A DNA stretch of 63,329 nucleotides, counting the filler, from Stramenopiles sp. TOSAG23-6 (taxonomy: Eukaryota): NCBI GenBank assembly GCA_900128565.1. It is 28 parts of 28 records of this genome, joined end to end, with 100 filler letters (N's around TTAATTAATTAA, not from the genome) between each part and the next. Parts side by side here need not be neighbours in the genome. Positions count along the whole stretch, not along the records: positions 18,185 to 20,356 come from LT638249.1; 27 more parts are not named here. One strand, 5' to 3'. This document shows positions 9,093 through 61,618 of the stretch, in pieces (position 1 is the first letter of the stretch; every line of letters begins with the position of its first letter). The position numbers and the translations under genes are program-made. Below the pieces are notes generated by a model. The model did not search any database and was not told the origin of the DNA. It saw nothing but the letters and a program-made list of their open reading frames with translations.

Positions 9093-9912
9093 TGGTGAAA
9101 TAAACCGACCGATAATATATTGTGAAAAATATTTTTGTTTTGTAAAAACTCGTTAGGTACAAAATTTACCATTAAAAAAGAATCAAAATTTATGATGAAA
9201 ACGTACATACACTGCATTAATTTTGATGGGATAAGCATCTTGATAGATTTTTGAAATTCTCTTTTCATGGATGTTGCAAAAATATTTCAAAAAAAATCTA
9301 AAAAAATTGTTAGGTACAAAATTTCCTATAAAAAAAAAAATTCGAAATTGAAAAAAAAATAAAACATACATCCAATATTTCCCAAGCCTCTTTAAAATCT
9401 TCATACGCCAAATGATACTCACCTAGACTACAGTATGCGCGTCCCCGACTATAAAAAAGAAGATGAACGGGGCAATCAAAATGCTCAAAGCTACCTTTTT
9501 GTACCCAATGTAAAGCATTTGTGAACTCTGCAACGGCAGATCGAGGCCGATTCATATGTTTTTTGGCAGCATTATAACAATTCCAAAATTCCATTATCAT
9601 TTTATTTTGATGGCAAGTGTTACTATTTCCCAAAAATAGCTCAGACTCTGAAGAGACTGCCTGTATATCTAAGTGCTTATCAATAGAGTTGGAACATTCC
9701 CTTTCCAGAGAAACAAATTCATCATGTATTGAAGCTTCATCTTTTTCAGTTATCGTGATATTATCTTGATATACGTTTTGCTGGGAAGCAACTACAGCTT
9801 TTGCGCTTTGTACAGCAAATTCTGTCATTGCTTGCAAAACTAAACGCTCTTGTAGTAACGCAAGACGCCGAAGGTGGTCAACCATATCGGCATCAGCTTC
9901 CAATAGTGTCAT
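9093..9912 (-). CDS. TPR protein, redundant copy 5
   Basis: Identical to 1-820. Confidence 0.65.
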
Positions 9913-10155
9913 TTATAATATACTATAATAACTCTCTATACAACAACTATAGTAGACTTATTGATGATGATCAGAATGACAGTCTCTGACGCTGACTGAC
10001 TCTAGCGGCTGGCTGCGTAGGCTAGGGTTAGGGTTCAGTGTAAATAATTGTGTTTGTGTTCGCTTCGATAAGTTGGTTGGTTTTATACTTGCCTGCGCAA
10101 TAACTAAATATTGGATCTTATATTACCCATTTTCTTGAAAATTACGTTCGAAAAC

Positions 10156-10893
10156 ATGGAAGGTGGACAACGCAGGCGATTGCAGCTTGCACCTCGCTCT
10201 AAGAAGGCAGGCGCTGTCGGCGGTTACGCAGCTCCTTCGACAAAATCTTCAATATTTGGAGCAGCTCGCCCACGGGAGGAAATTCTCAAGTCCAAGGGAA
10301 TTGACTTCAAAAAGGTTGAGGAGGATTTAGAAAAGCGCACTTCATCTTACCCACGCATGGATGAGAAAGCCCTTGAAAATGTGAAGGCTATTGAAAGTGA
10401 AATATCTCATGCAAAGTCTGAGCTAGAAGAAATTAGTGTTGACGCATCTGCTGAAGAAAAGCAAAAGTTGGAGAATGTTCTGAAAACCAAGGAAGCAGAA
10501 CTCACTACCTTTCTCGAAAGCGTTGTAGCACAGAATGCCGCAAATCGTAAATTCGAGCGCCCATCCGAGCGAAGGCGCAGACAAGAAGACAATAGGCGTG
10601 AAAATGGTGATTATGGAAGTCGTAGTGGTAATCATGACGACACTACTTTCAGTAATTTTGGAAACTCCCGCAATCGTCGTAATAGCGGCGGAAGACGCAA
10701 TCGACAGCGAGGTAACGACAATAGAGGCTATGACAATAGAAGTTATGATAATGGAGGCTATGGTAATGGAGGTTACAACTCCCGAAGAAAAGACAGCTTC
10801 GACAGAGATGAAGGTGGTCGAAATCACAGGCAAAAATACGACCACATTGACCGTGCACTTGAAGGAGACGATAACCTTGGAGAAGCGTGGTAA
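10156..10893 (+). CDS. eIF4B-like, redundant copy 5
   Basis: Identical to 1064-1801. Confidence 0.7.
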   Translation: MEGGQRRRLQLAPRSKKAGAVGGYAAPSTKSSIFGAARPREEILKSKGIDFKKVEEDLEKRTSSYPRMDEKALENVKAIESEISHAKSELEEISVDASAEEKQKLENVLKTKEAELTTFLESVVAQNAANRKFERPSERRRRQEDNRRENGDYGSRSGNHDDTTFSNFGNSRNRRNSGGRRNRQRGNDNRGYDNRSYDNGGYGNGGYNSRRKDSFDRDEGGRNHRQKYDHIDRALEGDDNLGEAW

Positions 10894-11365
10894 TTTTTTT
10901 AATATTCTAGTAGTGAAGCCATATTTTGGATTATACCCCATTACTTGTGGTTGTATTATTTCATCCACATGTATTTTTATTAATGTTTTGTTGGCGGATT
11001 AACCATAATATGTTGTTATTTTCTAAGAAGGCGCAATGACAAATGGTTTGTTGATGGATGAACCATAATATATTCGTTTTTAGAACTTTGATAAATTTTT
11101 TATACAATGTAAACATTATTGTCTTTAATTTTTATTATTTTTCAGACATTTTTATGTCAATAAAATAGCCGATAGCCCTTTCTTTTTAAAAAATAAAACT
11201 TCCTTGTTTGTTCATTTTTTTTTCTACGTCTTGTTGAGTTCAATATCGCCATTCCTAGAATATTTNNNNNNNNNNNNNNNNNNNNNNNNNNNNNNNNNNN
11301 NNNNNNNNNTTAATTAATTAANNNNNNNNNNNNNNNNNNNNNNNNNNNNNNNNNNNNNNNNNNNN

Positions 11366-12185
11366 TGGTGAAATAAACCGACCGATAATATATTGTGAAA
11401 AATATTTTTGTTTTGTAAAAACTCGTTAGGTACAAAATTTACCATTAAAAAAGAATCAAAATTTATGATGAAAACGTACATACACTGCATTAATTTTGAT
11501 GGGATAAGCATCTTGATAGATTTTTGAAATTCTCTTTTCATGGATGTTGCAAAAATATTTCAAAAAAAATCTAAAAAAATTGTTAGGTACAAAATTTCCT
11601 ATAAAAAAAAAAATTCGAAATTGAAAAAAAAATAAAACATACATCCAATATTTCCCAAGCCTCTTTAAAATCTTCATACGCCAAATGATACTCACCTAGA
11701 CTACAGTATGCGCGTCCCCGACTATAAAAAAGAAGATGAACGGGGCAATCAAAATGCTCAAAGCTACCTTTTTGTACCCAATGTAAAGCATTTGTGAACT
11801 CTGCAACGGCAGATCGAGGCCGATTCATATGTTTTTTGGCAGCATTATAACAATTCCAAAATTCCATTATCATTTTATTTTGATGGCAAGTGTTACTATT
11901 TCCCAAAAATAGCTCAGACTCTGAAGAGACTGCCTGTATATCTAAGTGCTTATCAATAGAGTTGGAACATTCCCTTTCCAGAGAAACAAATTCATCATGT
12001 ATTGAAGCTTCATCTTTTTCAGTTATCGTGATATTATCTTGATATACGTTTTGCTGGGAAGCAACTACAGCTTTTGCGCTTTGTACAGCAAATTCTGTCA
12101 TTGCTTGCAAAACTAAACGCTCTTGTAGTAACGCAAGACGCCGAAGGTGGTCAACCATATCGGCATCAGCTTCCAATAGTGTCAT
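11366..12185 (-). CDS. TPR protein, redundant copy 6
   Basis: Identical to 1-820. Confidence 0.65.
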
Positions 12186-12428
12186 TTATAATATACTATA
12201 ATAACTCTCTATACAACAACTATAGTAGACTTATTGATGATGATCAGAATGACAGTCTCTGACGCTGACTGACTCTAGCGGCTGGCTGCGTAGGCTAGGG
12301 TTAGGGTTCAGTGTAAATAATTGTGTTTGTGTTCGCTTCGATAAGTTGGTTGGTTTTATACTTGCCTGCGCAATAACTAAATATTGGATCTTATATTACC
12401 CATTTTCTTGAAAATTACGTTCGAAAAC

Positions 12429-13166
12429 ATGGAAGGTGGACAACGCAGGCGATTGCAGCTTGCACCTCGCTCTAAGAAGGCAGGCGCTGTCGGCGGTTAC
12501 GCAGCTCCTTCGACAAAATCTTCAATATTTGGAGCAGCTCGCCCACGGGAGGAAATTCTCAAGTCCAAGGGAATTGACTTCAAAAAGGTTGAGGAGGATT
12601 TAGAAAAGCGCACTTCATCTTACCCACGCATGGATGAGAAAGCCCTTGAAAATGTGAAGGCTATTGAAAGTGAAATATCTCATGCAAAGTCTGAGCTAGA
12701 AGAAATTAGTGTTGACGCATCTGCTGAAGAAAAGCAAAAGTTGGAGAATGTTCTGAAAACCAAGGAAGCAGAACTCACTACCTTTCTCGAAAGCGTTGTA
12801 GCACAGAATGCCGCAAATCGTAAATTCGAGCGCCCATCCGAGCGAAGGCGCAGACAAGAAGACAATAGGCGTGAAAATGGTGATTATGGAAGTCGTAGTG
12901 GTAATCATGACGACACTACTTTCAGTAATTTTGGAAACTCCCGCAATCGTCGTAATAGCGGCGGAAGACGCAATCGACAGCGAGGTAACGACAATAGAGG
13001 CTATGACAATAGAAGTTATGATAATGGAGGCTATGGTAATGGAGGTTACAACTCCCGAAGAAAAGACAGCTTCGACAGAGATGAAGGTGGTCGAAATCAC
13101 AGGCAAAAATACGACCACATTGACCGTGCACTTGAAGGAGACGATAACCTTGGAGAAGCGTGGTAA
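12429..13166 (+). CDS. eIF4B-like, redundant copy 6
   Basis: Identical to 1064-1801. Confidence 0.7.
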   Translation: MEGGQRRRLQLAPRSKKAGAVGGYAAPSTKSSIFGAARPREEILKSKGIDFKKVEEDLEKRTSSYPRMDEKALENVKAIESEISHAKSELEEISVDASAEEKQKLENVLKTKEAELTTFLESVVAQNAANRKFERPSERRRRQEDNRRENGDYGSRSGNHDDTTFSNFGNSRNRRNSGGRRNRQRGNDNRGYDNRSYDNGGYGNGGYNSRRKDSFDRDEGGRNHRQKYDHIDRALEGDDNLGEAW

Positions 13167-13638
13167 TTTTTTTAATATTCTAGTAGTGAAGCCATATTTT
13201 GGATTATACCCCATTACTTGTGGTTGTATTATTTCATCCACATGTATTTTTATTAATGTTTTGTTGGCGGATTAACCATAATATGTTGTTATTTTCTAAG
13301 AAGGCGCAATGACAAATGGTTTGTTGATGGATGAACCATAATATATTCGTTTTTAGAACTTTGATAAATTTTTTATACAATGTAAACATTATTGTCTTTA
13401 ATTTTTATTATTTTTCAGACATTTTTATGTCAATAAAATAGCCGATAGCCCTTTCTTTTTAAAAAATAAAACTTCCTTGTTTGTTCATTTTTTTTTCTAC
13501 GTCTTGTTGAGTTCAATATCGCCATTCCTAGAATATTTNNNNNNNNNNNNNNNNNNNNNNNNNNNNNNNNNNNNNNNNNNNNTTAATTAATTAANNNNNN
13601 NNNNNNNNNNNNNNNNNNNNNNNNNNNNNNNNNNNNNN

Positions 13639-14458
13639 TGGTGAAATAAACCGACCGATAATATATTGTGAAAAATATTTTTGTTTTGTAAAAACTCGTT
13701 AGGTACAAAATTTACCATTAAAAAAGAATCAAAATTTATGATGAAAACGTACATACACTGCATTAATTTTGATGGGATAAGCATCTTGATAGATTTTTGA
13801 AATTCTCTTTTCATGGATGTTGCAAAAATATTTCAAAAAAAATCTAAAAAAATTGTTAGGTACAAAATTTCCTATAAAAAAAAAAATTCGAAATTGAAAA
13901 AAAAATAAAACATACATCCAATATTTCCCAAGCCTCTTTAAAATCTTCATACGCCAAATGATACTCACCTAGACTACAGTATGCGCGTCCCCGACTATAA
14001 AAAAGAAGATGAACGGGGCAATCAAAATGCTCAAAGCTACCTTTTTGTACCCAATGTAAAGCATTTGTGAACTCTGCAACGGCAGATCGAGGCCGATTCA
14101 TATGTTTTTTGGCAGCATTATAACAATTCCAAAATTCCATTATCATTTTATTTTGATGGCAAGTGTTACTATTTCCCAAAAATAGCTCAGACTCTGAAGA
14201 GACTGCCTGTATATCTAAGTGCTTATCAATAGAGTTGGAACATTCCCTTTCCAGAGAAACAAATTCATCATGTATTGAAGCTTCATCTTTTTCAGTTATC
14301 GTGATATTATCTTGATATACGTTTTGCTGGGAAGCAACTACAGCTTTTGCGCTTTGTACAGCAAATTCTGTCATTGCTTGCAAAACTAAACGCTCTTGTA
14401 GTAACGCAAGACGCCGAAGGTGGTCAACCATATCGGCATCAGCTTCCAATAGTGTCAT
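13639..14458 (-). CDS. TPR protein, redundant copy 7
   Basis: Identical to 1-820. Confidence 0.65.
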
Positions 14459-14701
14459 TTATAATATACTATAATAACTCTCTATACAACAACTATAGTA
14501 GACTTATTGATGATGATCAGAATGACAGTCTCTGACGCTGACTGACTCTAGCGGCTGGCTGCGTAGGCTAGGGTTAGGGTTCAGTGTAAATAATTGTGTT
14601 TGTGTTCGCTTCGATAAGTTGGTTGGTTTTATACTTGCCTGCGCAATAACTAAATATTGGATCTTATATTACCCATTTTCTTGAAAATTACGTTCGAAAA
14701 C

Positions 14702-15439
14702 ATGGAAGGTGGACAACGCAGGCGATTGCAGCTTGCACCTCGCTCTAAGAAGGCAGGCGCTGTCGGCGGTTACGCAGCTCCTTCGACAAAATCTTCAATA
14801 TTTGGAGCAGCTCGCCCACGGGAGGAAATTCTCAAGTCCAAGGGAATTGACTTCAAAAAGGTTGAGGAGGATTTAGAAAAGCGCACTTCATCTTACCCAC
14901 GCATGGATGAGAAAGCCCTTGAAAATGTGAAGGCTATTGAAAGTGAAATATCTCATGCAAAGTCTGAGCTAGAAGAAATTAGTGTTGACGCATCTGCTGA
15001 AGAAAAGCAAAAGTTGGAGAATGTTCTGAAAACCAAGGAAGCAGAACTCACTACCTTTCTCGAAAGCGTTGTAGCACAGAATGCCGCAAATCGTAAATTC
15101 GAGCGCCCATCCGAGCGAAGGCGCAGACAAGAAGACAATAGGCGTGAAAATGGTGATTATGGAAGTCGTAGTGGTAATCATGACGACACTACTTTCAGTA
15201 ATTTTGGAAACTCCCGCAATCGTCGTAATAGCGGCGGAAGACGCAATCGACAGCGAGGTAACGACAATAGAGGCTATGACAATAGAAGTTATGATAATGG
15301 AGGCTATGGTAATGGAGGTTACAACTCCCGAAGAAAAGACAGCTTCGACAGAGATGAAGGTGGTCGAAATCACAGGCAAAAATACGACCACATTGACCGT
15401 GCACTTGAAGGAGACGATAACCTTGGAGAAGCGTGGTAA
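14702..15439 (+). CDS. eIF4B-like, redundant copy 7
   Basis: Identical to 1064-1801. Confidence 0.7.
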   Translation: MEGGQRRRLQLAPRSKKAGAVGGYAAPSTKSSIFGAARPREEILKSKGIDFKKVEEDLEKRTSSYPRMDEKALENVKAIESEISHAKSELEEISVDASAEEKQKLENVLKTKEAELTTFLESVVAQNAANRKFERPSERRRRQEDNRRENGDYGSRSGNHDDTTFSNFGNSRNRRNSGGRRNRQRGNDNRGYDNRSYDNGGYGNGGYNSRRKDSFDRDEGGRNHRQKYDHIDRALEGDDNLGEAW

Positions 15440-15911
15440 TTTTTTTAATATTCTAGTAGTGAAGCCATATTTTGGATTATACCCCATTACTTGTGGTTGT
15501 ATTATTTCATCCACATGTATTTTTATTAATGTTTTGTTGGCGGATTAACCATAATATGTTGTTATTTTCTAAGAAGGCGCAATGACAAATGGTTTGTTGA
15601 TGGATGAACCATAATATATTCGTTTTTAGAACTTTGATAAATTTTTTATACAATGTAAACATTATTGTCTTTAATTTTTATTATTTTTCAGACATTTTTA
15701 TGTCAATAAAATAGCCGATAGCCCTTTCTTTTTAAAAAATAAAACTTCCTTGTTTGTTCATTTTTTTTTCTACGTCTTGTTGAGTTCAATATCGCCATTC
15801 CTAGAATATTTNNNNNNNNNNNNNNNNNNNNNNNNNNNNNNNNNNNNNNNNNNNNTTAATTAATTAANNNNNNNNNNNNNNNNNNNNNNNNNNNNNNNNN
15901 NNNNNNNNNNN

Positions 15912-16731
15912 TGGTGAAATAAACCGACCGATAATATATTGTGAAAAATATTTTTGTTTTGTAAAAACTCGTTAGGTACAAAATTTACCATTAAAAAAGA
16001 ATCAAAATTTATGATGAAAACGTACATACACTGCATTAATTTTGATGGGATAAGCATCTTGATAGATTTTTGAAATTCTCTTTTCATGGATGTTGCAAAA
16101 ATATTTCAAAAAAAATCTAAAAAAATTGTTAGGTACAAAATTTCCTATAAAAAAAAAAATTCGAAATTGAAAAAAAAATAAAACATACATCCAATATTTC
16201 CCAAGCCTCTTTAAAATCTTCATACGCCAAATGATACTCACCTAGACTACAGTATGCGCGTCCCCGACTATAAAAAAGAAGATGAACGGGGCAATCAAAA
16301 TGCTCAAAGCTACCTTTTTGTACCCAATGTAAAGCATTTGTGAACTCTGCAACGGCAGATCGAGGCCGATTCATATGTTTTTTGGCAGCATTATAACAAT
16401 TCCAAAATTCCATTATCATTTTATTTTGATGGCAAGTGTTACTATTTCCCAAAAATAGCTCAGACTCTGAAGAGACTGCCTGTATATCTAAGTGCTTATC
16501 AATAGAGTTGGAACATTCCCTTTCCAGAGAAACAAATTCATCATGTATTGAAGCTTCATCTTTTTCAGTTATCGTGATATTATCTTGATATACGTTTTGC
16601 TGGGAAGCAACTACAGCTTTTGCGCTTTGTACAGCAAATTCTGTCATTGCTTGCAAAACTAAACGCTCTTGTAGTAACGCAAGACGCCGAAGGTGGTCAA
16701 CCATATCGGCATCAGCTTCCAATAGTGTCAT
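15912..16731 (-). CDS. TPR protein, redundant copy 8
   Basis: Identical to 1-820. Confidence 0.65.
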
Positions 16732-16974
16732 TTATAATATACTATAATAACTCTCTATACAACAACTATAGTAGACTTATTGATGATGATCAGAATGACA
16801 GTCTCTGACGCTGACTGACTCTAGCGGCTGGCTGCGTAGGCTAGGGTTAGGGTTCAGTGTAAATAATTGTGTTTGTGTTCGCTTCGATAAGTTGGTTGGT
16901 TTTATACTTGCCTGCGCAATAACTAAATATTGGATCTTATATTACCCATTTTCTTGAAAATTACGTTCGAAAAC

Positions 16975-17712
16975 ATGGAAGGTGGACAACGCAGGCGATT
17001 GCAGCTTGCACCTCGCTCTAAGAAGGCAGGCGCTGTCGGCGGTTACGCAGCTCCTTCGACAAAATCTTCAATATTTGGAGCAGCTCGCCCACGGGAGGAA
17101 ATTCTCAAGTCCAAGGGAATTGACTTCAAAAAGGTTGAGGAGGATTTAGAAAAGCGCACTTCATCTTACCCACGCATGGATGAGAAAGCCCTTGAAAATG
17201 TGAAGGCTATTGAAAGTGAAATATCTCATGCAAAGTCTGAGCTAGAAGAAATTAGTGTTGACGCATCTGCTGAAGAAAAGCAAAAGTTGGAGAATGTTCT
17301 GAAAACCAAGGAAGCAGAACTCACTACCTTTCTCGAAAGCGTTGTAGCACAGAATGCCGCAAATCGTAAATTCGAGCGCCCATCCGAGCGAAGGCGCAGA
17401 CAAGAAGACAATAGGCGTGAAAATGGTGATTATGGAAGTCGTAGTGGTAATCATGACGACACTACTTTCAGTAATTTTGGAAACTCCCGCAATCGTCGTA
17501 ATAGCGGCGGAAGACGCAATCGACAGCGAGGTAACGACAATAGAGGCTATGACAATAGAAGTTATGATAATGGAGGCTATGGTAATGGAGGTTACAACTC
17601 CCGAAGAAAAGACAGCTTCGACAGAGATGAAGGTGGTCGAAATCACAGGCAAAAATACGACCACATTGACCGTGCACTTGAAGGAGACGATAACCTTGGA
17701 GAAGCGTGGTAA
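16975..17712 (+). CDS. eIF4B-like, redundant copy 8
   Basis: Identical to 1064-1801. Confidence 0.7.
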   Translation: MEGGQRRRLQLAPRSKKAGAVGGYAAPSTKSSIFGAARPREEILKSKGIDFKKVEEDLEKRTSSYPRMDEKALENVKAIESEISHAKSELEEISVDASAEEKQKLENVLKTKEAELTTFLESVVAQNAANRKFERPSERRRRQEDNRRENGDYGSRSGNHDDTTFSNFGNSRNRRNSGGRRNRQRGNDNRGYDNRSYDNGGYGNGGYNSRRKDSFDRDEGGRNHRQKYDHIDRALEGDDNLGEAW

Positions 17713-18238
17713 TTTTTTTAATATTCTAGTAGTGAAGCCATATTTTGGATTATACCCCATTACTTGTGGTTGTATTATTTCATCCACATGTATTTTTATT
17801 AATGTTTTGTTGGCGGATTAACCATAATATGTTGTTATTTTCTAAGAAGGCGCAATGACAAATGGTTTGTTGATGGATGAACCATAATATATTCGTTTTT
17901 AGAACTTTGATAAATTTTTTATACAATGTAAACATTATTGTCTTTAATTTTTATTATTTTTCAGACATTTTTATGTCAATAAAATAGCCGATAGCCCTTT
18001 CTTTTTAAAAAATAAAACTTCCTTGTTTGTTCATTTTTTTTTCTACGTCTTGTTGAGTTCAATATCGCCATTCCTAGAATATTTNNNNNNNNNNNNNNNN
18101 NNNNNNNNNNNNNNNNNNNNNNNNNNNNTTAATTAATTAANNNNNNNNNNNNNNNNNNNNNNNNNNNNNNNNNNNNNNNNNNNNGTACGAAATTTTGTAC
18201 CTAACGATTTTTTTTTGAAATATTTTTCCAAAATACAT

Positions 18239-18403: not shown

Positions 18404-18657
18404 TACGAAAGAAAGGATTTCGAGATTATATTATATTGTTGGTTCTATTGTTTATAAAAGAATGTTAGACTTTTTTACTACAAAAATACAGATAAATTAA
18501 CAAATTCGAATTTTCAAGAAAAAGAAACGTCTGTCAAAGGGGGAACACATCAACACCGAAAATTGTGTTTACAAGTATTACATTCTATAAATCACAAACA
18601 TTCTTCCTAATTAGATCTGAAATCTCTGATAAAAAGGGGGTTGACAAGTGATAAATA

Positions 18658-19917
18658 ATGATGTTAAGATCTCTTTCATCAGTGTACAGTTCCGTTGCAA
18701 CGCGTACATTCCATCGTGGTGTTACAACGCTCGTTCCTTTTGACTGGGAAGATCCATTTAACCTCACTTCTCAGTTAACAGAAGAAGAAATAATGACCCG
18801 AGATATGGCCCGTGCATATTGTCAACAAGAACTTTTACCACGTGTCCTTGATGCCAACCGAAATGAAACACATGACCCAAAAATGTTAAAAGAAATGGGT
18901 GAATTGGGTCTACTTGGACCAACAATTAATGGTTACGGCTGTTCGGGAGTGGGGTATGTTTCATATGGGTTAGTTGCTCGTGAAGTTGAACGTGTCGATA
19001 GTGCATATCGTTCCGCCATGAGTGTACAGTCATCACTTGTTATGCATCCTATTAATGCATTTGGATCAGAGGAACAAAAAAAAAAGTATATTCCGGAATT
19101 AGCTAAAGGAAAGATGGTCGGTTGTTTTGGACTAACTGAACCTAACCACGGTTCAGATCCTGGTGGCATGGAAACCAAAGCTAGAAAAGACGGGAACGGA
19201 AACGTTGTTCTCAATGGTTCAAAAAATTGGATTACTAACTCACCTGTAGCTGATGTTATGGTTATTTGGGCTAAAGATGATGAAGGGGATATTAGGGGAT
19301 AGTACATTTTCATTCTGTATATTTTTTTAAAAATCAATGAAATTCTGTACCTAACAAATTTTTTTTGTGTGACATATTTTTTCACCAACAGTATTGTTGA
19401 AAAAGGAACACCAGGTTTGTCTGCGCCAAAAATTGAGGGGAAATTTTCCCTCCGCGCCGGTGTAACCGGGATGATTTTTATGGAAGATGTCGTGATTCCT
19501 GAATCGAATATGCTTCCAAATGTGAAAGGCTTAAAAGGGCCGTTTTCGTGCTTAAATTCAGCACGGTATGGTATTTCGTGGGGTTCAATGGGAGCTGCTG
19601 AGTTTTGTTTTCATGCCGCAAGGGATTATGTATTAGACCGAAAGCAGTTTGGTAGACCTCTTGCTGCAAATCAACTCATGCAAAAAAAAATGGCAGATAT
19701 GTTGACTGATATTTCATTAGGTCTTCAAGGTAGTTTGCAGGTGGGTAGACTTATCGATGAAGGTAATGTAGCTCCTGAAATGATTTCCATTATGAAACGA
19801 AATAATTGCGGAAAGTCTTTAGAAATTGCCCGTCAAGCTCGCGACATGCTAGGTGGAAATGGGATATCTGATGAATATCATATAATTCGACATGTTATGA
19901 ATTTGGAAGCTGTCAAT
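18658..19917 (+). CDS. GCDH: Glutaryl-CoA dehydrogenase, mitochondrial; exons 18658-19301, 19392-19917; final exon missing
   Basis: [68 protein letters not shown]; transit-peptide-like N-terminus. Confidence 0.95.
19302..19391 (+). mobile_element. Diverged family intron with canonical GT-AG ends
   Basis: gga ta|GTACAT...GTACCTAAC...AACAG|t att restores IRGYIVEKG. Confidence 0.85.
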
Positions 19918-20017
19918 GTATGTTTTATTTTTTTTTTGTATGATTTTTTTTTCGTACGAAATTTTGTACCTAACAATTTTTTTATGATTTTTTTTGAAAT
20001 ATTTTTCCAAAATACAT
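19918..20017 (+). mobile_element. Near-consensus introner-like element, GTATGT...AATACAT
   Basis: Full consensus including TTCGTACGAAATTTTGTACCTAAC; the downstream exon does not belong to GCDH. Confidence 0.8.
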
Positions 20018-20502
20018 TGGTTGGAAGTGGATGTTAGATAAAGGAAAGAAAAATGATATATCGGAGACTTGTTTCTTTCAAGGATTTTTAGGAAATTTAT
20101 TCGGGAAAAGTATTGAAGCGCATTTACAACAAGAAGGTCAATATATACTAGAAGGATTTAATCAATAAAAAAACATTGAAACATATTTTATTCCGTGAAA
20201 TGAATAATAAAATTCGAATAAAACTTTAGCTGTATGTAATCTCTCATATATTTTTCCCACTTACACTCTAGAATTATTTTTTTTTTAAATTTGTTAGGTA
20301 CAAAATTTCGTACAAAAAAAAATTGTTTACTCTATACACAATAAAAAATTCTCCCANNNNNNNNNNNNNNNNNNNNNNNNNNNNNNNNNNNNNNNNNNNN
20401 TTAATTAATTAANNNNNNNNNNNNNNNNNNNNNNNNNNNNNNNNNNNNNNNNNNNNTATCCAAATAACTATTCTTTTCAAAACTTATAAAAGTGCTACAA
20501 TA

Positions 20503-22566
20503 ATGAAGAATATGTGTCGTATCGTTATTGCAGGTGTATCCGTGCAAAAAGTTCTTGGTATGGATGCAGTTGAGCATAATCCCAATACTGGGACACTACA
20601 AAGTAATGATGAAGCTACGTTTCCAATAAGTCCCGCCGCTGCGAAACTTTCTAATACGATAAGAGGATCAGTTGAAGATGTGGATTATCCGAGTAAAGAT
20701 CCAATTCCATTCCCCAATTTATCAAAAGATGAGCTTGCTCGGATGATTGAAATTCTAGAAGTAGGCGCAAGAAATAATAATTGGAATCACATTGAGAATT
20801 TTCGTGCTCAGGATATTGCAGAGCTCATCGAAGTTGCTAACTATATGGGGGCACCAGAGCTTATCGAAGCTCTGGATAAAGCATATAAAGCAAGTTTAAA
20901 TGGACTGACTGCTGAAGAACTTAAAGCAAAATACCTTGCTGACAAGGAACTCTTCGAATATCGCAACGGTGATCGCAGTTTATCTAATATAATCCAGGAA
21001 CAGCTGCAACAACAATTACATGAAGAGAAACTGAATGCTCGCTCAAATCCTAGTGACTTAGCTAGTCATAAGACACTTTTCGACTGGTACACTAGCGAGT
21101 TAGGCAGAGATGGTATATCGCTGGGAGAAGATGTTTTACATGTTTCATTCGAAGCATTCATGACTGAAAAGTATAAAGATGACGCAACCTTCCAAGTAAT
21201 GCTTCACAAAAAAGAAGAAAACGACACATATGGCAAAAACTTACTGTACGTAAAGTCTCATAAAGATAAATAACGATATCCCCATACATGTATAGATAAT
21301 AGTATATTTGTATTGATTTGTTCCAACTATAATACTATTATTTTCTTACAATATAGTTATAAATATATTTTCACAATATAGATCTCTTCGAGGACTTGAT
21401 TTAAGTGGGGAGAAAGCAAAGATGTTACAATTCCTTGAATTCATGCCAAACGTAACAATGCTAGACTTGAGCAGTTGCAAATTGGACACAATTGAGGATA
21501 TTCCACGTGCTACTCTTGAACGACTTAAAGAATTGTACTATACATTTACTGAATTATGAATATACATTTTATCACATATGTATTGAAATCTTTACAGTTG
21601 TAACTCATATATATATACATCTGCTATTGATATTCAATTCTATGTAGGGGGCTTCACAAAAATCAACTTAAAGAAGTGACCTTGCAAAATTTACCTAAAC
21701 TTGAGACATTGTATGTAACATGTAAACAATTATTTCACATTCACTTTATATAATGAATATACATTTATCACATATGTATTGAAATCTTTATAGTTGTAAC
21801 TCATATATATACATCTGTTGTTGATATTCAATTGTATGTAGGTATCTTGGAGATAATCAACTTCAAAAAGTGACATTGCAAAATTTACCTAACCTTAAGG
21901 ATTTGTATGTAACATGTAAACAACTATTTCACATTCACTATATATAATGAATATACATTTATCACATATTTCTTGAAATCGTTATAGTTGTAACTCATAT
22001 ATATACATCTGTTGTTGATATTCAATTATATGTAGGCGGCTTCAGAATAATCAACTTCAAGAAGTGACCTTGCAAAATTTACCTGGACTTATGTTTTTGT
22101 ATGTAACATGTACACAACTATTTCACATTCACTATATTTAATGAATATACATTTGTCACATACGTATTGAAATCTTTACAGTTGTAACTCATATATATAC
22201 ATCTGTTGTTGATATTCAATTTTTATGTAGGTTTCTTGAACATAATCAACTTGAAAAACTGACCTTCCGAGATTTACCTAAACTTGAGACTTTGTATGTA
22301 ACATGTAAACAACTATTTCACATTCACTATATAATGAATATACAATAAAAACACAAACAAAAAACTAATTATTAAATCTATGAATGTATCTCACAATTTT
22401 TATGGCGACAGATTTGGGATATGCGGATTCTGCAGATAGAGTTCAACGTCTAGTTGATGAAATCAACAGGAATGGTGCTGCTGTAACGATTCAAAGAATG
22501 ATTCGAAAAAAAATACAAGCTCAAAAAGCTCTTCGAGCAGCAGTTGCTCCTGCTGCTGGTGCTTAA
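20503..22566 (+). CDS. Skp1/BTB-like + LRR (+ possible IQ motif) protein; exons 20503-21245, 21382-21534, 21648-21710, 21842-21904, 22036-22098, 22231-22293; last exon uncertain
   Basis: Skp1-like AAKLSNTI...PIPFPNL...ELIEVANYM; four 63-nt exons each LxLxxNQLxxVTLQNLPxLxxL; phase-2 GT-AG introns; AAVTIQRMIRK in the terminal ORF. Confidence 0.7.
21545..22343 (+). repeat. Tandem ~194-bp exon+intron units (about 4 copies)
   Basis: Near-identical introns GTATGTAACATG...TATGTAG alternating with 63-nt LRR exons. Confidence 0.9.
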
Positions 22567-23890: not shown

Positions 23891-24880
23891 ATGGACGAAA
23901 ATGAAAACTTTGAAAATGACGACTCAACATCTGTTTCAATAGGGAAATCAGGGTTCATTGACACACGAAATATTGGAAAGGATACAGTCAATGCAGATCA
24001 TTTGAGAACGTATGTGAATGATGAGATAGACATTTTCACAGAGAAGACACAAAAAAATATAGAAAACATATCGAAAATGCAAATTTCAAAGGATAGAAAA
24101 AAAAAGACTANAAAAAAAAAATTATTGGGTAGAAAATTTCATAGTAAAAAAAAGGATTTGAAGAAAATTAGACAAACTTTACCCATTGAGGAGTTTCCAA
24201 AACTAATAGCTGATTTAAGACTATGTAGATATAAGGTTGTACGGTGGGCGTGCAGGAGGTTAAGATGGCCATATTTAAAGAAAAATATTTCTGATATCTC
24301 AGCAGAGAAAAAATTATCGTATTGCAAAGGTTGTATGTTTTTTTTTTTTTAATTTCGAATTTATTTTTTTTTTTATAGTAAATTTTGTACCTAACAAAAA
24401 AATATTCAAAAAAAAAAAAGAAATATATTTTTATACTACATGTACTCCTGCTAATAGTGAAATTGGAAAGCATATAGAATATACAAAATACAATCAAAAT
24501 ATGATTGATCACTCAAATCATAATTCTACTATTAATACTTTTAATAAGCAAAATTATGTTACAGATAAACAATATATAAAAAATACAAAAAATACAAAAA
24601 ATACTACATTTCTAGACAATTCTATACATAAAGAAAAAAAACAAATGTCTGAAAAATTCGTACCAAATTTTGTACCTAAAGAAACAACACAAAAAAGCCA
24701 AAAAAGCCAAAAAAGCGTTGCTGGTTTAGTGTTTCATTACCCCCCGAGAACAATGCAATGGAAGCAAGATAATAAAACTGGATTTCGTTTACGGTTAGGA
24801 ATGACGGGAAATCATGTTTGTTTTCATCAAAAAGAAAATTTCGTACCAAATTTCGTACCAAGAAAAAAAAAACGATTTTT
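23891..24880 (+). CDS. Unknown protein, 3' partial; intron 24333-24441
   Basis: ggt t|GTATGT...CTACAT|gt act joins ORFs 23891 and 24501 in frame (CKGCTP). Confidence 0.5.
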
Positions 24881-25049: not shown

Positions 25050-27093
25050 GTTAGATCATGCTCACTTTTTATTAGCATTTTTAATGTTACAGCGAAAAAA
25101 AGGAGATATTGATCAAAAAATACCTCCGAAAATTGAGACACGAATTATGTAGGTTTTTTTTTTTTTTTTTTCAACATGAATATCAGAATATTTTTTGTAT
25201 ACAAAATTTTTTTTTTTTTTTTTCAAATATTTTTTTTAAATCAACTTTTTGATTGTAAAATATTTTTTTTTCAAATATTTTTTTTAAATCAACTTTTTGA
25301 TTGTACAATATTTTTCCATGTACATGTGTCCCTTAGCAGATGAGCAAAGATTTTGGTATAAAAGATTACTACTTAAAGAATCTAAACAATTAGAACAGTT
25401 GGAAAAAATTGCTCAACATCGCGACAATACGAAAAATATATCACAAACAATTTTAGGTAATGATTGGAAACGGTTACGCTCTCTTTTAATGCAGTTACGA
25501 AAATGTTGTAATCACCCTTTTTTATTTCCAAAAGCTGAAGCATCGATGATTTCAGATATCAAACAACGTTANAAACGAATTCGAAATGAAAGAAAAAAAA
25601 ATACAAATAATACTACAAATGATAATATTACAAATAATACAAATAATAATACTACTACAAATAATACAAATAATAATAATACTACAAATAATAATACAAA
25701 TAATAATAATACTACAAATAATAATACTACAAATAATAATACTACAAATAATAATACAAATAATACTAATAATACTACAAATAATAATACTATAAATAAT
25801 ACTAATAATACTACTACAAAACAACAAACAATATTAAGAGATAAAGAAATTGCAGAATGTATAATCAATGCTAGTGGTAAAATGATAATTCTTGATAAAA
25901 TGTTACATCATTTATTTGCAAATGGACATAGAATTGTTATATTTTCGCAATTTACAAAATTTCTAAATATTATTCATGACTATTTGAATTATCGAAAAAT
26001 TCAATTTGTACGATTAGATGGCAGTGTCAGTCGAGTAAGACGGATGATTGACATTTCAGAATTTAATAAACCGAATTCTCCCTATAAGGTATTTTTAATG
26101 AGTACTCGTGCTGGTGGGTTAGGTGTAAATCTACAGTCTGCGGATACAGTCATATTAATGGATTCAGATTGGAATCCACAAGTGGATCAGCAGGCTATGG
26201 CTCGAGTTCACCGAATTGGACAAAAAAAAATTACTCATATTTATAGATTTGTATCTGCTGGTACAATGGAGGAAAGAATGGTACAGAGAGCTGAAAAAAA
26301 ACTATTTTTAGACACTATGGTAAATAAAGGTGGTTCTATCAAATCTTCCATGGCAATGCAATCAAAAAATAACAACGATTTTACCCGTACTAACCCTAAC
26401 CCTAGTAAACATAGTAATCATTGTAATAGTATAAAAAATAGCAACAATAGTAGCAATGAAACATTAAGCGATATGGATTTGTTTAAAGCTTTAAGTTTTG
26501 GTGTTGATCGAATTTTTGATTCTCGACAATCATCACAAAAACACGAAAAAACGACATTTTTGTCAGATGAAGATATTTTAGAAATTATTCAACGAAAACA
26601 TCCAAATGATATAAATACCCCTAACCCTAGTGGTGATACAAATGTGGATTATACCACTACTACTGATATCAATAACAAAAATAACAAAAATAACAAAAAT
26701 TTTGAAACAACAAACCCTAACCCTAGTCTAAACCCTAACCCTACAGGACACGAGACAAAAACAAATAAAAAATGTGTCGCTTTGTCATATCATCAAAAAA
26801 ATACTACAAAAGATTTTGATGAGAATTTAGGATTTGTCGCTTTACGCGAATTTGAAGGTAAACATTATTCTAGGTTTGGTACGAAATGTAGTACAGATTC
26901 AAGAAAAAGTATTGATTATATCGAAAATGATAAAAATGATAAAAACCCTAACCCTCCTGTAAAAAAAAGAAAAAACGATTGTTTAGATTATAACCCTAAC
27001 CCTACTTCCTCCATGAGTGATGACCCAGTACTGTATAAACCGTTTCAAAAACGAAAACGAAACAAAAGATTTCTGTATTTTTTATTATTATGA
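25050..27093 (+). CDS. SNF2-family chromatin-remodelling ATPase, helicase C-terminal part; intron 25149-25325; Asn/Thr-rich insert
   Basis: IPPKIETRIM|CPL, LMQLRKCCNHPFLF, SGKM, FSQF, RLDG, STRAGGLGVNLQSADTV, DWNPQVDQQAMARVHRIGQ. Confidence 0.92.
25600..25820 (+). repeat. AAT/ACT/ACA low-complexity coding microsatellite (poly-N/T)
   Basis: Direct reading. Confidence 0.9.
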
Positions 27094-29351: not shown

Positions 29352-29797
29352 GTAGGTTTTCAACATTAAATTTCGAATTTTTTGTACCAAATTTTGTACC
29401 TAACGAATTTCGAATGTAAAATAAATTTCACAATNNNNNNNNNNNNNNNNNNNNNNNNNNNNNNNNNNNNNNNNNNNNTTAATTAATTAANNNNNNNNNN
29501 NNNNNNNNNNNNNNNNNNNNNNNNNNNNNNNNNNGTTTGACCAACATCATCATATTCTTGTTTTGTATTTTTCATATTTTTATTCGTCGTAGACTCATTG
29601 GACAGTTGATGAATCTCTGATGTATCAATGATATCACTCTTATCATCTAGTTCAAGTAATAATGATTCCATGCGCTTTTTGTTTCGTTCATATTGCTTTT
29701 GAGCATTAATCATCTGTAACTGTGCTTCATCTCTAGCTTTGTAGTCCTCAATTTCAAGGTTTTCAAATACTTGACGATAAATTTGTTTCTCTCTACG

Positions 29798-37071: not shown

Positions 37072-38319
37072 TCGGCCTTTAATTTTATGTCAACCTATAA
37101 TGATTGAAATTACCCGAGGTGTATTAGTAAGAGCTCTAGCATCACATGGAGGTGGTGCTAATGGAACAAAACGGGTCAATTCTCGTATATTAGATTTAGT
37201 GTTATATATATTAGTTATGTATGTTTTATTTATTTATTTATTTATTTTTTTTTGATTAATTGTTTTTCATACGAAATTTTGTACCTAACATTTTTTTTAA
37301 GATTTTTTTTTGAAATATTTTTCTAAAATACATTTCAATACAAATTGTAAAGGAACATTGTTTTACATCATGTAAAGATGCAAAAGAAGCTGCTCAAACG
37401 TATGCAAATGCAAAACAAGATGCTTTGGAAAAAACAAAATTGTGTTATCAGATAGAAAAATTATACAAACAACAAAATCAACAACAAAATCAACAAAAAA
37501 ATCAACAAAAAAATCAACAACAAAATCAACAACAAAATCAACAACAAAATCAACCACAAAACTCTACAATAACTAGTACAACTACCCCGCCCCCACCACC
37601 ACCACCTACAGATTCAAATGATGATGATTTTGATGATATTGATGATGTTCATGATTATGATATTGATTATGATGAATTATTAGCAGAAGAAGATAACCTG
37701 ATATCAAGGATGATGAACCCTAACCCTAACACTACAACAACTAACCCTAACCCTAACCCTAACCTTACAACTACAATAAATGATGTATTAGTAGCAGAAC
37801 AAAATGCCACGAAATCAATGGAAAAATGTGAAAAGTGTTATTTAGACTTTTTAGTTTCAGATTATGTATATTTTATTTATTTTTTTTTCAAAAAAATCGA
37901 ATTATTTTTTCGTACGAAATTTTGTACCTAACAAAATTTTTTAGATTTTTTTTGAAATATTTTTTCAAAATACATTTACCAGCTTTATCGCGTGAAGATT
38001 CTCAATCCAATTTGAGTATTTTAACTTTATTATTAGAAATAGAAGAACAATCAAATAATGAAAATTTTGATGAACCAGACATAAATATGACGTCACCATT
38101 AGGGTTAGGGTTAGATGATTCACAAAAGGGAAATATTGAATGGATTTTGGATAGAGTTAGTCAAGATAATATTGATTGTAAAAAAAAAATACAAATATTT
38201 CGTGATTTAAAAAAAAAAAAAAGACAAGAAACATCAAAACATAATTCTCTACGCTCGGCTGTTGGTGATAAAAAGAAGCAAATGGCTTTAAATGTTCAAA
38301 AACGAATGATGGAAAATAT
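37072..38319 (+). CDS. Internal exons (37072-37218, 37334-37865, 37976-38319) of a large protein, possibly a UBR-type E3 ligase
   Basis: Frame maintained across GT-AT introns 37219-37333 and 37866-37975; SILTLLL...IEWIL...QKRMMENM loosely resembles the pre-RING region of UBR1 (weak). Confidence 0.5.
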
Positions 38320-40883: not shown

Positions 40884-42423
40884 TTACTTGGTATTCGAAA
40901 GTTAATGTTGTCATCAACGAGTATAAAGACTCGAGGGTTTCGTCGTACACTTTTATTGTCCTTTGTGCCAGATGAAGAAATTGGAGGAAAAGATGGCATG
41001 GGTGCATTTCTAGCTTCAAGTGAATTCTCTGAGTTACCACCTATTGGTCTCGCATTAGATGAGGGATTAGCTAAACATGTTTGTTTTCATCATTTTTTTT
41101 TTTTCAATTTCATTTTTTTTTCGTAGGTAATTTTGTACCTAACAAAAATTAAATTTTTTTTTTTTGAAATATTTTCACGAAATACATGGAAAACCTGGTG
41201 AGTGTACTGTTTTTTATGGAGAACGATCTCCTTGGTGGATTATTGTAAAAGCAAAAGGACCAACTGGGCATGGATCACGTTTCATTGAAAATCCTGCCAC
41301 GCATCGTCTCCTTCGAGTTGCAGAAAAAGCATTGAAGTATCGTAAAGAACAAGAAGCTTCATTAGGATATTGTGAACATCATATACGTTAGCCCTAACCC
41401 TAATCATGAATTTCAAATTTATTTTTTTTTCTACAATTTTTTGTACCTAACCTAACAAAAATTGTACTTTAAAAAAAATATATTTTCAAACAAATTATGG
41501 AGGTTGTAAACATGCATTGGCTAAGAAACTAGGTGATGTCACTACAGTCAATCTAACAATGTTAAAAAGCGGTGTATCTGGTGATGGAGTACGTGTTCAT
41601 CATTAATTTAAATTTTTGTTTTTGAATTTTTTTTTTTTGTACTACATTTTGTACCTAATGAATTNNNNNNNNNNNNNNNNNNNNNNNNNNNNNNNNNNNN
41701 NNNNNNNNNNNNNNNNNNNNNNNNNNNNNNNNNNNNNNNNNNNNNNNNNNNNNNNNNNNNNNNNNNNNNNNNNNNNNNNNNNNNNNNNNNNNNNNNNNNN
41801 NNNNNNNNNNNNNNNNNNGGAAGATGTACGTTTTCAAAATTGAATTTCGAATTTTTTTTTTGTACGAAAATTTTGTACCTAACAAAAAATGTTACATTTT
41901 TGAAATATTTGTTTATAATACGGTATCATGGGAGTTTGCCCCGTGGACTCAGCCCTTACAGCAGCACTATATCACGCCGGTCAGTTCATCAGTAGACTCT
42001 TCAGGGAATCAAAGTAAAGCATCTGCGTGTATGTCATCTCTCTCCATGAAATCAAGGTCAAAACCCTAACCCTAACGAAAACTTGAATTAATTTTTTTTT
42101 TAACTATGAAATTTTGTACCTAACAAATTTAATTTTTTTTTTTTGAAATATTTTCATCATATACATGGTGGACAGTATTTGAAGAAGCAACCAAAGCTGC
42201 TGGAATCACAGTATGTCCTGAGGTTTTTCCAGCTGCTACTGATAGTCGATTTTTACGTCAAAAAAAAATTGCTGCATTTGGATTTTCACCAATGTCGGCG
42301 ACTCCAATTTTGTTGCATGAGCATGATGAATGGATCGGTGAAAAAACGTTTTTATCGGGTATAGATATATACAGTAAAATGCTACCAATTATTGTCAATG
42401 CTCCTATACTTATCGATGAGTAA
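40884..42423 (+). CDS. ACY1: Aminoacylase-1 (M20A peptidase), 5' partial; introns 41079-41187, ~41383-41498, 41589-gap, ~41826-41919, 42029-42166
   Basis: SFVPDEEIGG, ALDEGLA, VFYGERSPWW, GHGSRF, LGDVTTVNLT, EVFPAATDSRFLR, TPILLHEHDE. Confidence 0.92.
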
Positions 42424-51602: not shown

Positions 51603-52000
51603 TTATTCATACTTTTGAGAAACAAAAAATGAGCATCGTTTTTCACCTCGATTGCATAAAAGGGAGTGCACTGTTCGAAATATCTGTAAACTACATACAA
51701 CGTTTTCATCTGTCAATGCATTCTCATTATACATGTATTTTGGAAAAATATTTGAAAAAAAAAACCTTAAATTTGTTAGGTACAAAATTTCGTATGAAAA
51801 AAAATTCGATTTTTTTGTTAAAAAAAAAAATAAAACATACATATGATTACCACTATTTGTAGTTGAATTCTCCTTCAATACTGTTTGCAGCTTTGACATT
51901 AATATTTTCCCGACAAGTAATTCTTCAATAATTTCAGAAATAATGGTTTCTCTACACTGCTGACGATACGTCAAATGAACTTTTTCGTCACCATGAATAC
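51603..52000 (-). CDS. 3' exons of an unknown protein; intron 51733-51840
   Basis: cat at|GTATGT...AATACAT|g tat keeps frame; a second family copy lies at the contig end. Confidence 0.5.
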
Positions 52001-58921: not shown

Positions 58922-59911
58922 ATGAGTATGGTCGTGCATTGGATTCTCTAATTAAATCATGTTCTGACATTCTCTGTGTGCGAAATGTTGAAGCTGATGA
59001 CTTTGAAGTATTTCTTGGTTGTCGAAATGTAGAACCTCAACCTGACTTTTGGTTCATTGGAGGAAGAAATCGACCAGGTGACACGACTGTCGAAGGTGCA
59101 GTGAAAAACATAAAACGTGAGTTGAATATAGATATAGAACCACATCGTTTCAGTGTTCTTTGTAATTTTTCATTGTTATGGTCAAGACGATCACAAGAAC
59201 CAAAAGAAAATGGAACAGCAGACATTTCTACAATTCATGTTGTACAGTTAAACGAAAAAGAAGTTAAAAGTATTTCTCTTGATCAAAAGGAGTATTCAAA
59301 AGCACAGTGGTTTTTATGGAAAGATGTGTTATATGGTGACTTTCATCCTGCTTTACAGTGTGCAATTCTTTATTTTAAATGTAGACAAGTGTATGGTTTA
59401 TTTTTTCCACATCTACATAATTTTTTTTCGTACGGAATTTTGTACCTAACAAAAAAATGTACAAAAAAAAATATTTTTTCAAAAAACATGTATTTAAAAA
59501 TGAAAAATTTGATTCAATCCAAAAAAAGTAAGTTTTCTTTTTTTGTTTCCTTCCTACTTTGTAGTAAAATATTTTGATTTTGTTTTCCCCTATCATTTGA
59601 ATATCCATTTGAATATCCATTTGAATGTCCATTTGAATATCCATTTGAATGTCTCATTTCATACCAAACCAACCATAAACGATGTAGTGTTCTACGCATC
59701 TTTGGATTCCGTACCAATTTTTCATACCTAAAAAAATAATATATGTTTTTACAATAAATGTCCAGAAGAAATTTCACTTTGTGCTAGTGATTTTGTTACG
59801 TATCAAAATTTATCTGAACAATACAAAATTACAAAAGTATTTTTTGAAGATGGAAAATATAAATATATCAAAGGTAAAAAGTTTTCTGACTTTCATACAT
59901 CTGTGGGTTAG
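58922..59911 (+). CDS. Nudix hydrolase, 5' partial; introns 59391-59489 and ~59528-59759
   Basis: R.VEPQPDFWFIGGR.RPG....A...I.REL Nudix-like box. Confidence 0.75.
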
Positions 59912-61302: not shown

Positions 61303-61618
61303 GGTCAAAGAAATGGTCTTGATGGGATTGTAACAATACCAAAATCTGTCACAGCGTCAAGAATCCTTCAAAATGCAAGTTGTGTGGATGTGTGTTTTTC
61401 ATCATGAATTTCAAATTTTGAAATTTTTTTTTTTGAAATTTTTTTTTTCGTACGAAATTTTGTACCTAACAATTTTTTTTTGGAATTTTTTTTCAGAATT
61501 ACAGGAGGGTTGGTCGATCCCACAAGAAATGATGGATACATTATCTAAAGCTGATGTTGGTTTTAAAGCCTCAGGTTCTGTGAATGACATGAAAATTCCA
61601 TGGACAACAATAAAATAA
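61303..61618 (+). CDS. Aldo-keto reductase, C-terminal exons; GT-AG intron 61390-61504
   Basis: VTIPKSVT.SRI.QN motif. Confidence 0.75.

What the first reader, a model, noticed from the sequence alone, without database searches (positions are those of the whole stretch)
19918..20017. Element anatomy is MITE-like: AT target duplication, short inverted ends, internal palindromes
Seen: most copies read exon-AT|GTAT...ATAC-AT|exon. That is a 2-bp AT direct repeat (often extending to ATG or CATG) around GTAT/ATAC inverted ends, with ATGTAT...ATACAT a perfect 6-bp inverted pair. Inside, TTTCGTACGAAA is a perfect palindrome and GTACGAAATTTTGTAC a near-palindrome directly before CTAAC. Known: described DNA-transposon introners take one splice site from the target-site duplication, so splicing restores the exon exactly. 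Inference: here the duplicated AT supplies the acceptor, which would explain both the GT-AT ends and why upstream exons end in GAT/CAT/TAT/AAT. No transposase is present in the window.
Basis: partly seen in the sequence, partly recalled or inferred. Interest (0 to 1): 0.8.

Follow-up and report, generated by a model that had tools for sequence, protein, structure and literature searches.

The report
Mobile AT-ending introns, rewired U1
Thousands of copies of a short mobile-looking intron in a marine protist end in AT instead of the near-universal AG, using two bases duplicated at the insertion site, and the cell's U1 splicing RNA carries three changes that pair exactly with the start of these introns.

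Summary
The anatomy is real but only partly MITE-like. The 100-nt element has at least 4,054 exact core copies in the assembly. In 182 scored copies, cutting GT..NN restores the frame in 145 of 165 testable cases (31-41 for 1-2-nt shifts), and one poly(A) RNA contig shows an exact AT-ending junction. The 2-bp duplication is genuine: 16 copies match in non-AT letters against 1.8 expected. The inverted ends are only 3-4 bp, and neither they nor the palindrome show compensatory change. No transposase with matching ends was found. The focal copy is a chimeric join. The genome's U1 candidate begins AAACGUACAUGG, not AUACUUACCUGG, and so pairs with CAT|GTACGTTT. Exon -1 T is kept even at synonymous positions. 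The upstream AT therefore has two sources: duplication at insertion and U1 pairing. The scan noted this family before on other pieces of this genome; no summary I was shown mentions U1. Verdict: a new introner variant with GT-AT splicing and a co-adapted U1; the mobiliser is unknown.

The parts
19918..20017 (+). Focal copy of the ~100-nt repeated GT..AT intron; its two flanks belong to different genes (chimeric join)
19916..19917 (+). Exonic AT, left copy of the 2-bp duplication; pairs with U1 positions 9-10
19918..19926 (+). Donor GTATGTTTT (family GTAYGTTTT), complementary to the U1 5' end and to the U6 ACAGAGA box
19950..19969 (+). Conserved core with overlapping palindrome and near-palindrome; no compensatory covariation
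19970..19974 (+). Branch-point-like CTAAC (putative branch A at 19973; median 40 nt from the 3' end in the family)
   Evidence: U2 GUAGUA unchanged
19996..20015 (+). Conserved 3' motif ending ATAC, the end of the element proper; forms a small hairpin in folds
20016..20017 (+). AT acceptor, right copy of the duplication
18655..19301 (+). GCDH exon 1 (stop-to-stop frame)
19302..19391 (+). Diverged family copy with GT..AG ends after exon TA; gives G-Y-I-V-E-K where relatives read G-Y-L-V-E-K
19392..19917 (+). GCDH exon 2, ending ..EAVN
20018..20168 (+). Exon of another gene, in frame with the exon before the copy on G000:C1182
32184..32284 (-). Family copy, AT/AT (duplicated at 34448-34548)
37219..37333 (+). 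Family copy, AT/AT
41826..41923 (+). Family copy called AT/GG; the 3' end call is uncertain
51733..51840 (-). Family copy, AT/AT
59391..59489 (+). Family copy, GT/AT
61390..61504 (+). Family copy with an AG end after exon AT

Best explanation
A non-autonomous introner (GTAY..ATAC, about 97 nt) spread to thousands of exonic sites with a 2-nt staggered cut, mostly at AT, and duplicated those two bases. The major (U2-type) spliceosome removes it. The donor and the CTAAC branch site come with the element; the acceptor is the downstream duplicate, usually AT, sometimes GT, TT, AA or AG; the mRNA is restored exactly. The 5' end of U1 has changed at positions 2, 5 and 9 to pair with CAT|GTAYGTTT, so the upstream copy of the duplication is now part of the donor signal and -1 T is held by selection. 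Shown: copy number, frame restoration, 2-bp covariation, one RNA junction, the U1 gene sequence. Inferred: DNA transposition, choice of the acceptor by position after the 3' motif rather than by AG, U1 pairing in vivo. Unknown: the mobiliser, and whether U1 changed before or after the invasion.
For: 4,054 exact 18-mer cores, reversed control 0. Frame restored in 145 of 165, against 40, 33, 41 and 31 for shifts of -2, -1, +1 and +2, and 23 unspliced. Frame open in sense only for 131 of 177, antisense only for 1. Non-AT identical pairs 16 against 1.8; they occur in several sequence subfamilies, and their nearest neighbours are often AT/AT copies. RNA contig X4 record 30 joins L002:8758 to 8863, a GA..AT intron after exon AA. 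The left copy drifts at wobble positions (12 of 40 against 13 of 100, p=0.027), so it is the exonic one; -1 T changed at only 1 of 62 wobble positions (p=4e-5 against -2). U1 candidate in a U5-U2-U1-U4 cluster, with mean 10.3 of 11 pairs against 7.4 for canonical U1. An uninterrupted kinase paralogue spans one site. Two GCDH relatives at 87% identity are called as single ORFs across both sites.
Against: No transposase with matching ends: three located elements have unrelated inverted repeats and a fourth ORF shows none like the family's; six other mobiliser families gave no match in an incomplete assembly. 46 of 182 copies... more exactly 48 of 182 have unequal left and right letters, which needs later drift, miscalls or chimeras. 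Matched GT, TT and AA pairs are absent from phase 1 (0 of 46 against 14 of 125), which I cannot explain. Target symmetry stops at -3 C/+1 G, which splicing also predicts. Only one RNA junction, at depth 2.2, on a GA-donor copy; many RNA contigs carry unspliced element sequence. U1 scores 54.1 bits, under the 69.5 gathering cut-off. No two of 167 copies are identical, so activity is not very recent.
Confidence: 0.66

Rival explanations
1. No duplication: the whole intron, AT acceptor included, is copied by an RNA route (reverse splicing). The upstream AT only reflects U1 pairing, as AG|GT..AG does in ordinary introns.
For: U1 pairs with CAT|GT. -1 T is under selection. Sense orientation dominates. 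Inverted ends are negligible. 31 of 182 copies have a non-AT left side and an AT end. For constant letters a duplication cannot be told from a preferred site (10.1101/2022.06.06.494994).
Against: It does not explain per-copy GT/GT, TT/TT, AA/AA and AG/AG matches, 16 against 1.8. Left-side mismatches concentrate at wobble positions, as later drift predicts. No RVT_1 match in G000 (incomplete assembly).
Confidence: 0.14
2. A classical MITE: a DDE transposase reads GTAT/ATAC inverted ends and the internal palindromes. PHIS-group elements such as ISL2EU and Pangu are recalled to make AT duplications (from memory, not checked).
For: 2-bp duplication with AT bias and a CATG tendency. Positions +1..+3 pair with -3..-5 in 151-158 of 180. 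DDE_Tnp_4 genes exist in G000.
Against: 0 of 180 pair at +5/-7, and +4 C is uncompensated in 63 of 66. The palindrome is uncompensated. Mean fold z is -0.88, with 9 of 60 below -2. The Harbinger element has GGCC.. ends and a TTA flank. The other DDE_Tnp_4 ORF shows no family-like ends.
Confidence: 0.1
3. A tyrosine or serine recombinase moves the element with a 2-bp crossover core that daughter copies inherit and that must match the target.
For: Short direct repeat without real inverted ends. GT/GT copies are slightly more alike than random (p=0.07; 3 of 7 have a GT nearest neighbour).
Against: TT/TT and AA/AA copies do not cluster. No PF00589 match. Serine recombinases were not searched.
Confidence: 0.05
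4. Not mobile: an intron-poor genome whose strict, extended splice signals make old introns look alike.
For: Donor and branch site match snRNAs. No identical copies. Age of the positions was not tested against distant species.
Against: About half of the 100 nt is conserved, and spacer subfamilies are shared. The duplication covaries per copy. Empty sites exist in a paralogue and apparently in relatives.
Confidence: 0.04
5. The register is two bases to the left (AT..AC), as in U12-type introns.
For: The duplication makes AT/AT copies ambiguous; ATAC is nearly constant.
Against: The RNA junction keeps the left letters. GCDH intron 1 gives Tyr as in relatives only in the GT register. Wobble drift marks the left copy as exonic. 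No U12 match. U1 fits the GT register.
Confidence: 0.01

Closest known systems
Introners with a duplication but no inverted repeats, e.g. Chrysochromulina sp. (10.1101/2022.06.06.494994, passages); Micromonas IE1 (PMC11282704, parts 1-2 of 5)
   Same: High-copy short introns that carry the 5' splice site, take the 3' site from the duplication and leave the mRNA unchanged.
   Different: There the duplication is 3-4 bp, and in the Micromonas example the recruited acceptor is AG. Here it is 2 bp and the acceptor is AT or whatever was duplicated. For Micromonas no compensatory U1 change was found (10.1101/2022.06.08.495308).
Non-canonical introns of Fritillaria borealis and F. pellucida (PMC13326754: abstract, section 21, first part of section 26)
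   Same: Transposon-derived introns that often end in AT (34% and 44% of introns), with a YAY triplet both before the donor and at the 3' end.
   Different: F. borealis donors are mostly non-GT (AG/AC, AG/AT). Its U1 5' end lacks strong complementarity to those donors, and the reported adaptations are U2AF paralogues and m6A. Here the donor is a strict GTAYGTTTT, one family dominates, and the U1 sequence itself matches.
Co-evolved U1 in Entamoeba (AACAAAC) and Mastigamoeba balamuthi (ACGUAC) (10.1101/2022.06.08.495308, passages)
   Same: U1 5' end changed to fit an atypical donor; ACGUAC, and an A facing +7, recur here.
   Different: The changes reported in the passages read face intronic positions. 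Here position 9 is also changed and faces exonic -1 T, the base of the duplication. No link to a mobile element or to non-AG acceptors appears in those passages.
Amoebophrya invasive intronic elements (as reviewed in PMC11282704)
   Same: Repeated non-canonical introns with duplications.
   Different: There 3-5-nt duplications, real inverted repeats and no U1 found. Here a 2-nt duplication, and U1 present but altered.

Membership tests
Introner | Many sequence-similar introns at unrelated sites | tested here: met
   4,054 exact cores; 182 full copies in 796 kb plus window
Introner | Removed exactly from mRNA | tested here: met
   145 of 165 frames; one RNA junction
Introner | One splice site recruited from a target duplication with locus-specific match | tested here: met
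   16 non-AT matches against 1.8
Introner | Lineage-specific (new) positions or presence/absence alleles | tested here: inconclusive
   One empty paralogue site; two intron-free GCDH relatives whose contigs may be DNA or RNA; metagenome scans gave 0
MITE | Short, non-coding, high copy | tested here: met
   Median 99 nt
MITE | Target-site duplication | tested here: met
   2 bp
MITE | Terminal inverted repeats (6 nt or more by the rule in 10.1101/2022.06.06.494994) | tested here: not met
   3-4 bp inside the duplication; 0 of 180 at the fifth pair; no compensation
MITE | Autonomous partner with the same ends | tested here: inconclusive
   Five transposase loci looked at, none with matching ends; six families without match; assembly incomplete
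U2-type spliceosomal intron | GT donor pairing with U1/U6, branch site pairing with U2 | tested here: met
   (sequence complementarity only)
U2-type spliceosomal intron | AG acceptor | tested here: not met
   AG in 10 of 182, AT in 149
U2-type spliceosomal intron | Lariat formation at the branch A | not testable with these tools
   Needs lariat sequencing
U12-type AT-AC intron | AT..AC register with U12 snRNA (donor consensus recalled from memory) | tested here: not met
Fritillaria-type non-canonical intron | Divergent U2AF paralogues reading non-AG ends | tested here: inconclusive
   TIGR01642 gave 18 weak matches, none over the cut-off; no U2AF orthologue was established; U2AF35 not searched

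The most novel reading that the evidence does not exclude
One mobile element rewrote this organism's splicing code. Its AT insertion footprint replaced AG on both sides of nearly every intron (CAT|GT..CAT|G in place of CAG|GT..CAG|G), U1 then evolved base changes that read the footprint itself, including exonic -1 T, and the spliceosome picks the acceptor without AG while Prp8's 3'-site region stays human-like.
Probability: 0.4. Interest if true: 0.88.

Novelty: new variant of a known kind. Interest (0 to 1): 0.72.

Why it matters
The AG acceptor and the U1 5' end are among the most conserved features of eukaryotic splicing. A genome in which one repeat family supplies thousands of GT-AT introns, and in which U1 matches that family's donor and insertion footprint, is a natural test of how a spliceosome co-evolves with an invading element and of what selects the 3' splice site when AG is absent. 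The order of events can be tested by reading U1 and orthologous sites in sister lineages. In practice, GT-AG gene finders will break such genes, and the repeat swaps flanks in assembly.

Tried and rejected
Inverted-end and palindrome covariation: none of note. The 8 T-A pairs at one palindrome position look like T-run variants; the compensated CATATG is not among the 14 commonest hexamers. A 3' hairpin covariation idea failed: 0 of 10 CACAA-ended copies had the matching GTGA arm. Mobiliser hunt: a Harbinger element, two DDE_3 loci, one DDE_1 locus and one further DDE_Tnp_4 ORF; none shares the ends. An end-like motif beside one DDE_3 gene reads better as a short degenerate intron. No match for PF00589, PF10551, PF00078, PF02992 (its control rang nowhere), PF07282 or PF01797. 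hAT, piggyBac, Helitron and serine recombinases were not searched. Prp8 human 1342-1741 is near-identical through the region recalled to dock the 3' site, so no explanation was found there. The canonical U1 12-mer occurs 3 times (control 2) and none of the three is an RNA gene. Two metagenome pattern scans gave 0 (near genomes may be left out). Most RNA joints listed link repeat copies and were ignored; partial contigs stopping at other junctions were not counted. The rule-based window lists miscall several 3' ends and were not used for counts. A genome-wide covariation count and the cluster look-up of P0003/P0004 could not be made. Literature: searches gave 0 papers; others listed nothing on this system by title or abstract start; PMC12614181 has no intron text; 10.64898/2026.04.17.719054 has only general intron fractions; PMC12130899 lists AG and AC as accepted 3' sites. 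Supplements were not read and most subscription papers are not in the library. The lineage was not tested: 'stramenopile' rests on my recall of the rDNA and on earlier AI notes.

Full report
Setting. The window is a string of about 2.2-kb contigs joined by N spacers, from a 21.1-Mb, 6,236-contig eukaryotic assembly, G000. Twenty were chosen for holding exact core matches; sixty are the first 10 kb of contigs C41-C100. All counts below rest on these stretches plus the window. I did not test the lineage.

Observation. The 18-mer core occurs 4,054 times in G000 (reversed control 0; the assembly has duplicate contigs). I called 5' and 3' ends with profiles that exclude the flanking dinucleotides and obtained 182 distinct full copies, median 99 nt; copies with degenerate or truncated ends were dropped by score. 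Exon -2/-1 is AT in 127 of 182 (exonic AT frequency 0.097). The last two bases are AT in 149, AG 10, GT 9, TT 6, AA 3, other 5. AT/AT accounts for 118. The perfect 6-bp inverted pair is present in 54 of 181 and the perfect palindrome in 51 of 180.

The focal copy is chimeric. Its left flank is GCDH ending EAVN; relatives continue TYEGTHD. That tail follows another copy on G000:C1182. Exchanging the flanks restores GCDH and gives a second continuous frame. The true GCDH intron is still AT/AT and restores N-T-Y-E exactly. Such swaps should dilute covariation, not create it.

They are introns, cut GT..NN. Removal leaves an open frame over 180 nt in 145 of 165 testable copies, against 40, 33, 41 and 31 for shifts of -2, -1, +1 and +2, and 23 unspliced; a 3-nt shift gives 137, so this test cannot see in-frame shifts. 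Over 240 nt the frame is open in sense only for 131 of 177, in both for 8, in antisense only for 1, in neither for 37. One poly(A) metatranscriptome contig joins L002:8758 to 8863 with no changed letter at the joint. That copy follows exon AA and ends AT, so it excludes the left-shifted registers; a one-base right shift fits equally. It is a single contig at depth 2.2, and the four runs also hold much unspliced element sequence. GCDH intron 1 (TA/AG) gives Tyr, as in relatives, only in the GT register.

The duplication is real and two bases long. Sixteen copies match in non-AT letters (7 GT, 5 TT, 2 AG, 2 AA) against a permutation mean of 1.8 and a maximum of 8 in 20,000; all 16 are among the 145 frame-validated copies; positions -3 and -4 match at chance. 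The 60 unselected stretches alone give 7 of 97. Forty-eight of 182 copies have unequal letters. Among AT-ending copies, exon -2 departs from A in 12 of 40 cases where it is a wobble base and in 13 of 100 where it is not (p=0.027; 171 of 182 copies could be phased), as expected if the left copy is exonic and drifts later. Unexplained: matched GT, TT and AA pairs are 0 of 46 in phase 1 against 14 of 125 elsewhere.

The MITE features are weak. Pairing holds at +1..+3 (151-158 of 180) and +4 (111), then fails (+5/-7: 0 of 180). Of 66 copies with C at +4 opposite A or G, 63 keep A. In the palindrome the G-C pair becomes A-C in 38 copies, and A-T is not among the eight commonest types. Sixty copies fold at mean z -0.88; the focal copy gives -1.3 as DNA and -2.1 as RNA. 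GTAY is what U1 and U6 read. No transposase lies in 45 window ORFs. Five transposase loci elsewhere have other ends or none like these, and six mobiliser families gave no match.

U1 is changed. One cluster holds U5, U2, U1 and U4 within 650 bp. U2's branch-pairing sequence, U5 loop I and U6's ACAGAGA are standard. The U1 candidate (E 6.6e-12; 54.1 bits, below the 69.5 cut-off; the only locus found, on two duplicate contigs; 41 of 253 candidates scored) begins AAACGUACAUGG where the Rfam consensus has AUACUUACCUGG. In the established register the three changes face +7 (T in 97%), +4 (C or T, both able to pair with G) and -1 (T in 93%). Mean pairing over 180 copies is 10.3 of 11 against 7.4 for canonical U1. 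Exon -1 T changed in only 1 of 62 cases where it is a wobble base, against 12 of 40 for -2 (p=4e-5), which points to selection on that base. The three chance matches to the canonical 5' 12-mer are not RNA genes. Expression of this U1 is not shown. Among 11 copies that start with AT, two fit an AC end by frame, and a third lies at L100:2346-2439; this recalls the known first-base/last-base compensation in spliceosomal introns (from memory). Prp8 is near-identical to human over 1342-1741, apart from a short stretch near 1440-1451 and scattered changes after 1600.

Mechanism. Best reading (0.66): a non-autonomous introner inserted with a 2-nt staggered cut, mostly at AT; the element supplies donor and branch site; the duplicate supplies the acceptor; U1 has come to read the left duplicate as part of the donor. 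Rivals are an RNA route without duplication (0.14), a classical MITE (0.10), a recombinase with an inherited core (0.05; one search gives p=0.07 for GT copies and nothing for TT), strict signals without mobility (0.04), and an AT-AC register (0.01).

Comparison. It works like introners that have a duplication but no inverted repeats and recruit the 3' site (10.1101/2022.06.06.494994, passages; PMC11282704, parts 1-2 of 5). AT acceptors with a repeated YAY are known from Fritillaria, where the donors are mostly non-GT and the reported adaptations are U2AF paralogues and m6A (PMC13326754, abstract and two sections). U1 co-evolution is known from Entamoeba and Mastigamoeba (10.1101/2022.06.08.495308, passages). 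I file it as an introner, not as a MITE, because the inverted-repeat criterion was tested and not met. I found no paper on this combination (searches; one search failed; supplements unread). The scan's own notes record the family and the duplication many times on other pieces of this genome; the summaries shown do not mention U1, and look-ups by the snRNA sequence and by words returned nothing.

Verdict. Observation partly confirmed; interpretation partly supported; new variant of a known kind; interest 0.72.

Noticed in passing
window 1-18084 and 31803-36230: Eight identical copies of one 2,173-bp contig and two of a 2,164-bp contig: assembly redundancy, which inflates copy counts.
   Followed up: yes
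L092:9-645 (G000:C6122, also C1146): U5, U2, U1 and U4 genes packed head to tail in 650 bp, 2-23 nt apart; possibly one transcript.
   Followed up: partly
L087/L097 (G000:C2432): Intact-looking PIF/Harbinger element (about 28-bp inverted repeats, TTA flanks, transposase and a second ORF) with a truncated copy of the intron core between the ends of its two ORFs.
   Followed up: partly
L100/L103 (G000:C304) and L102 (G000:C439): DDE_3 transposase within 113-bp inverted repeats about 4.1 kb apart that also enclose another, intron-bearing gene; DDE_1 ORF of 1,080 aa within 14-bp inverted repeats.
   Followed up: partly
L007:5409-5504; L100:2346-2439: Family copies that start AT and end AC; others start AT, GC, GA or GG and end AT.
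   Followed up: partly
window 16845-16856, 26393-26402, 41372-41383, 42046-42056 and many more: Telomere-like CCCTAA/TTAGGG units scattered inside exons, introns and upstream regions.
   Followed up: no
L095 (G000:C84): Prp8 has a 2,021-aa open frame without introns and a substituted stretch at human 1440-1451; not compared with related protists.
   Followed up: partly
window 24650-24690, 24830-24865, 29380-29405; L007:5782: Core motif without a donor or 3' end, some in apparently coding or intergenic DNA.
   Followed up: no
window 56667-58821: Introns with internally duplicated cores (two or three branch motifs in one intron) in an elongation-factor-type GTPase gene.
   Followed up: no
window 21380-22340: Five or so tandem units of about 180 bp, each with a short AT-rich interruption unlike the main family; possibly a leucine-rich-repeat gene with its own small introns.
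   Followed up: no
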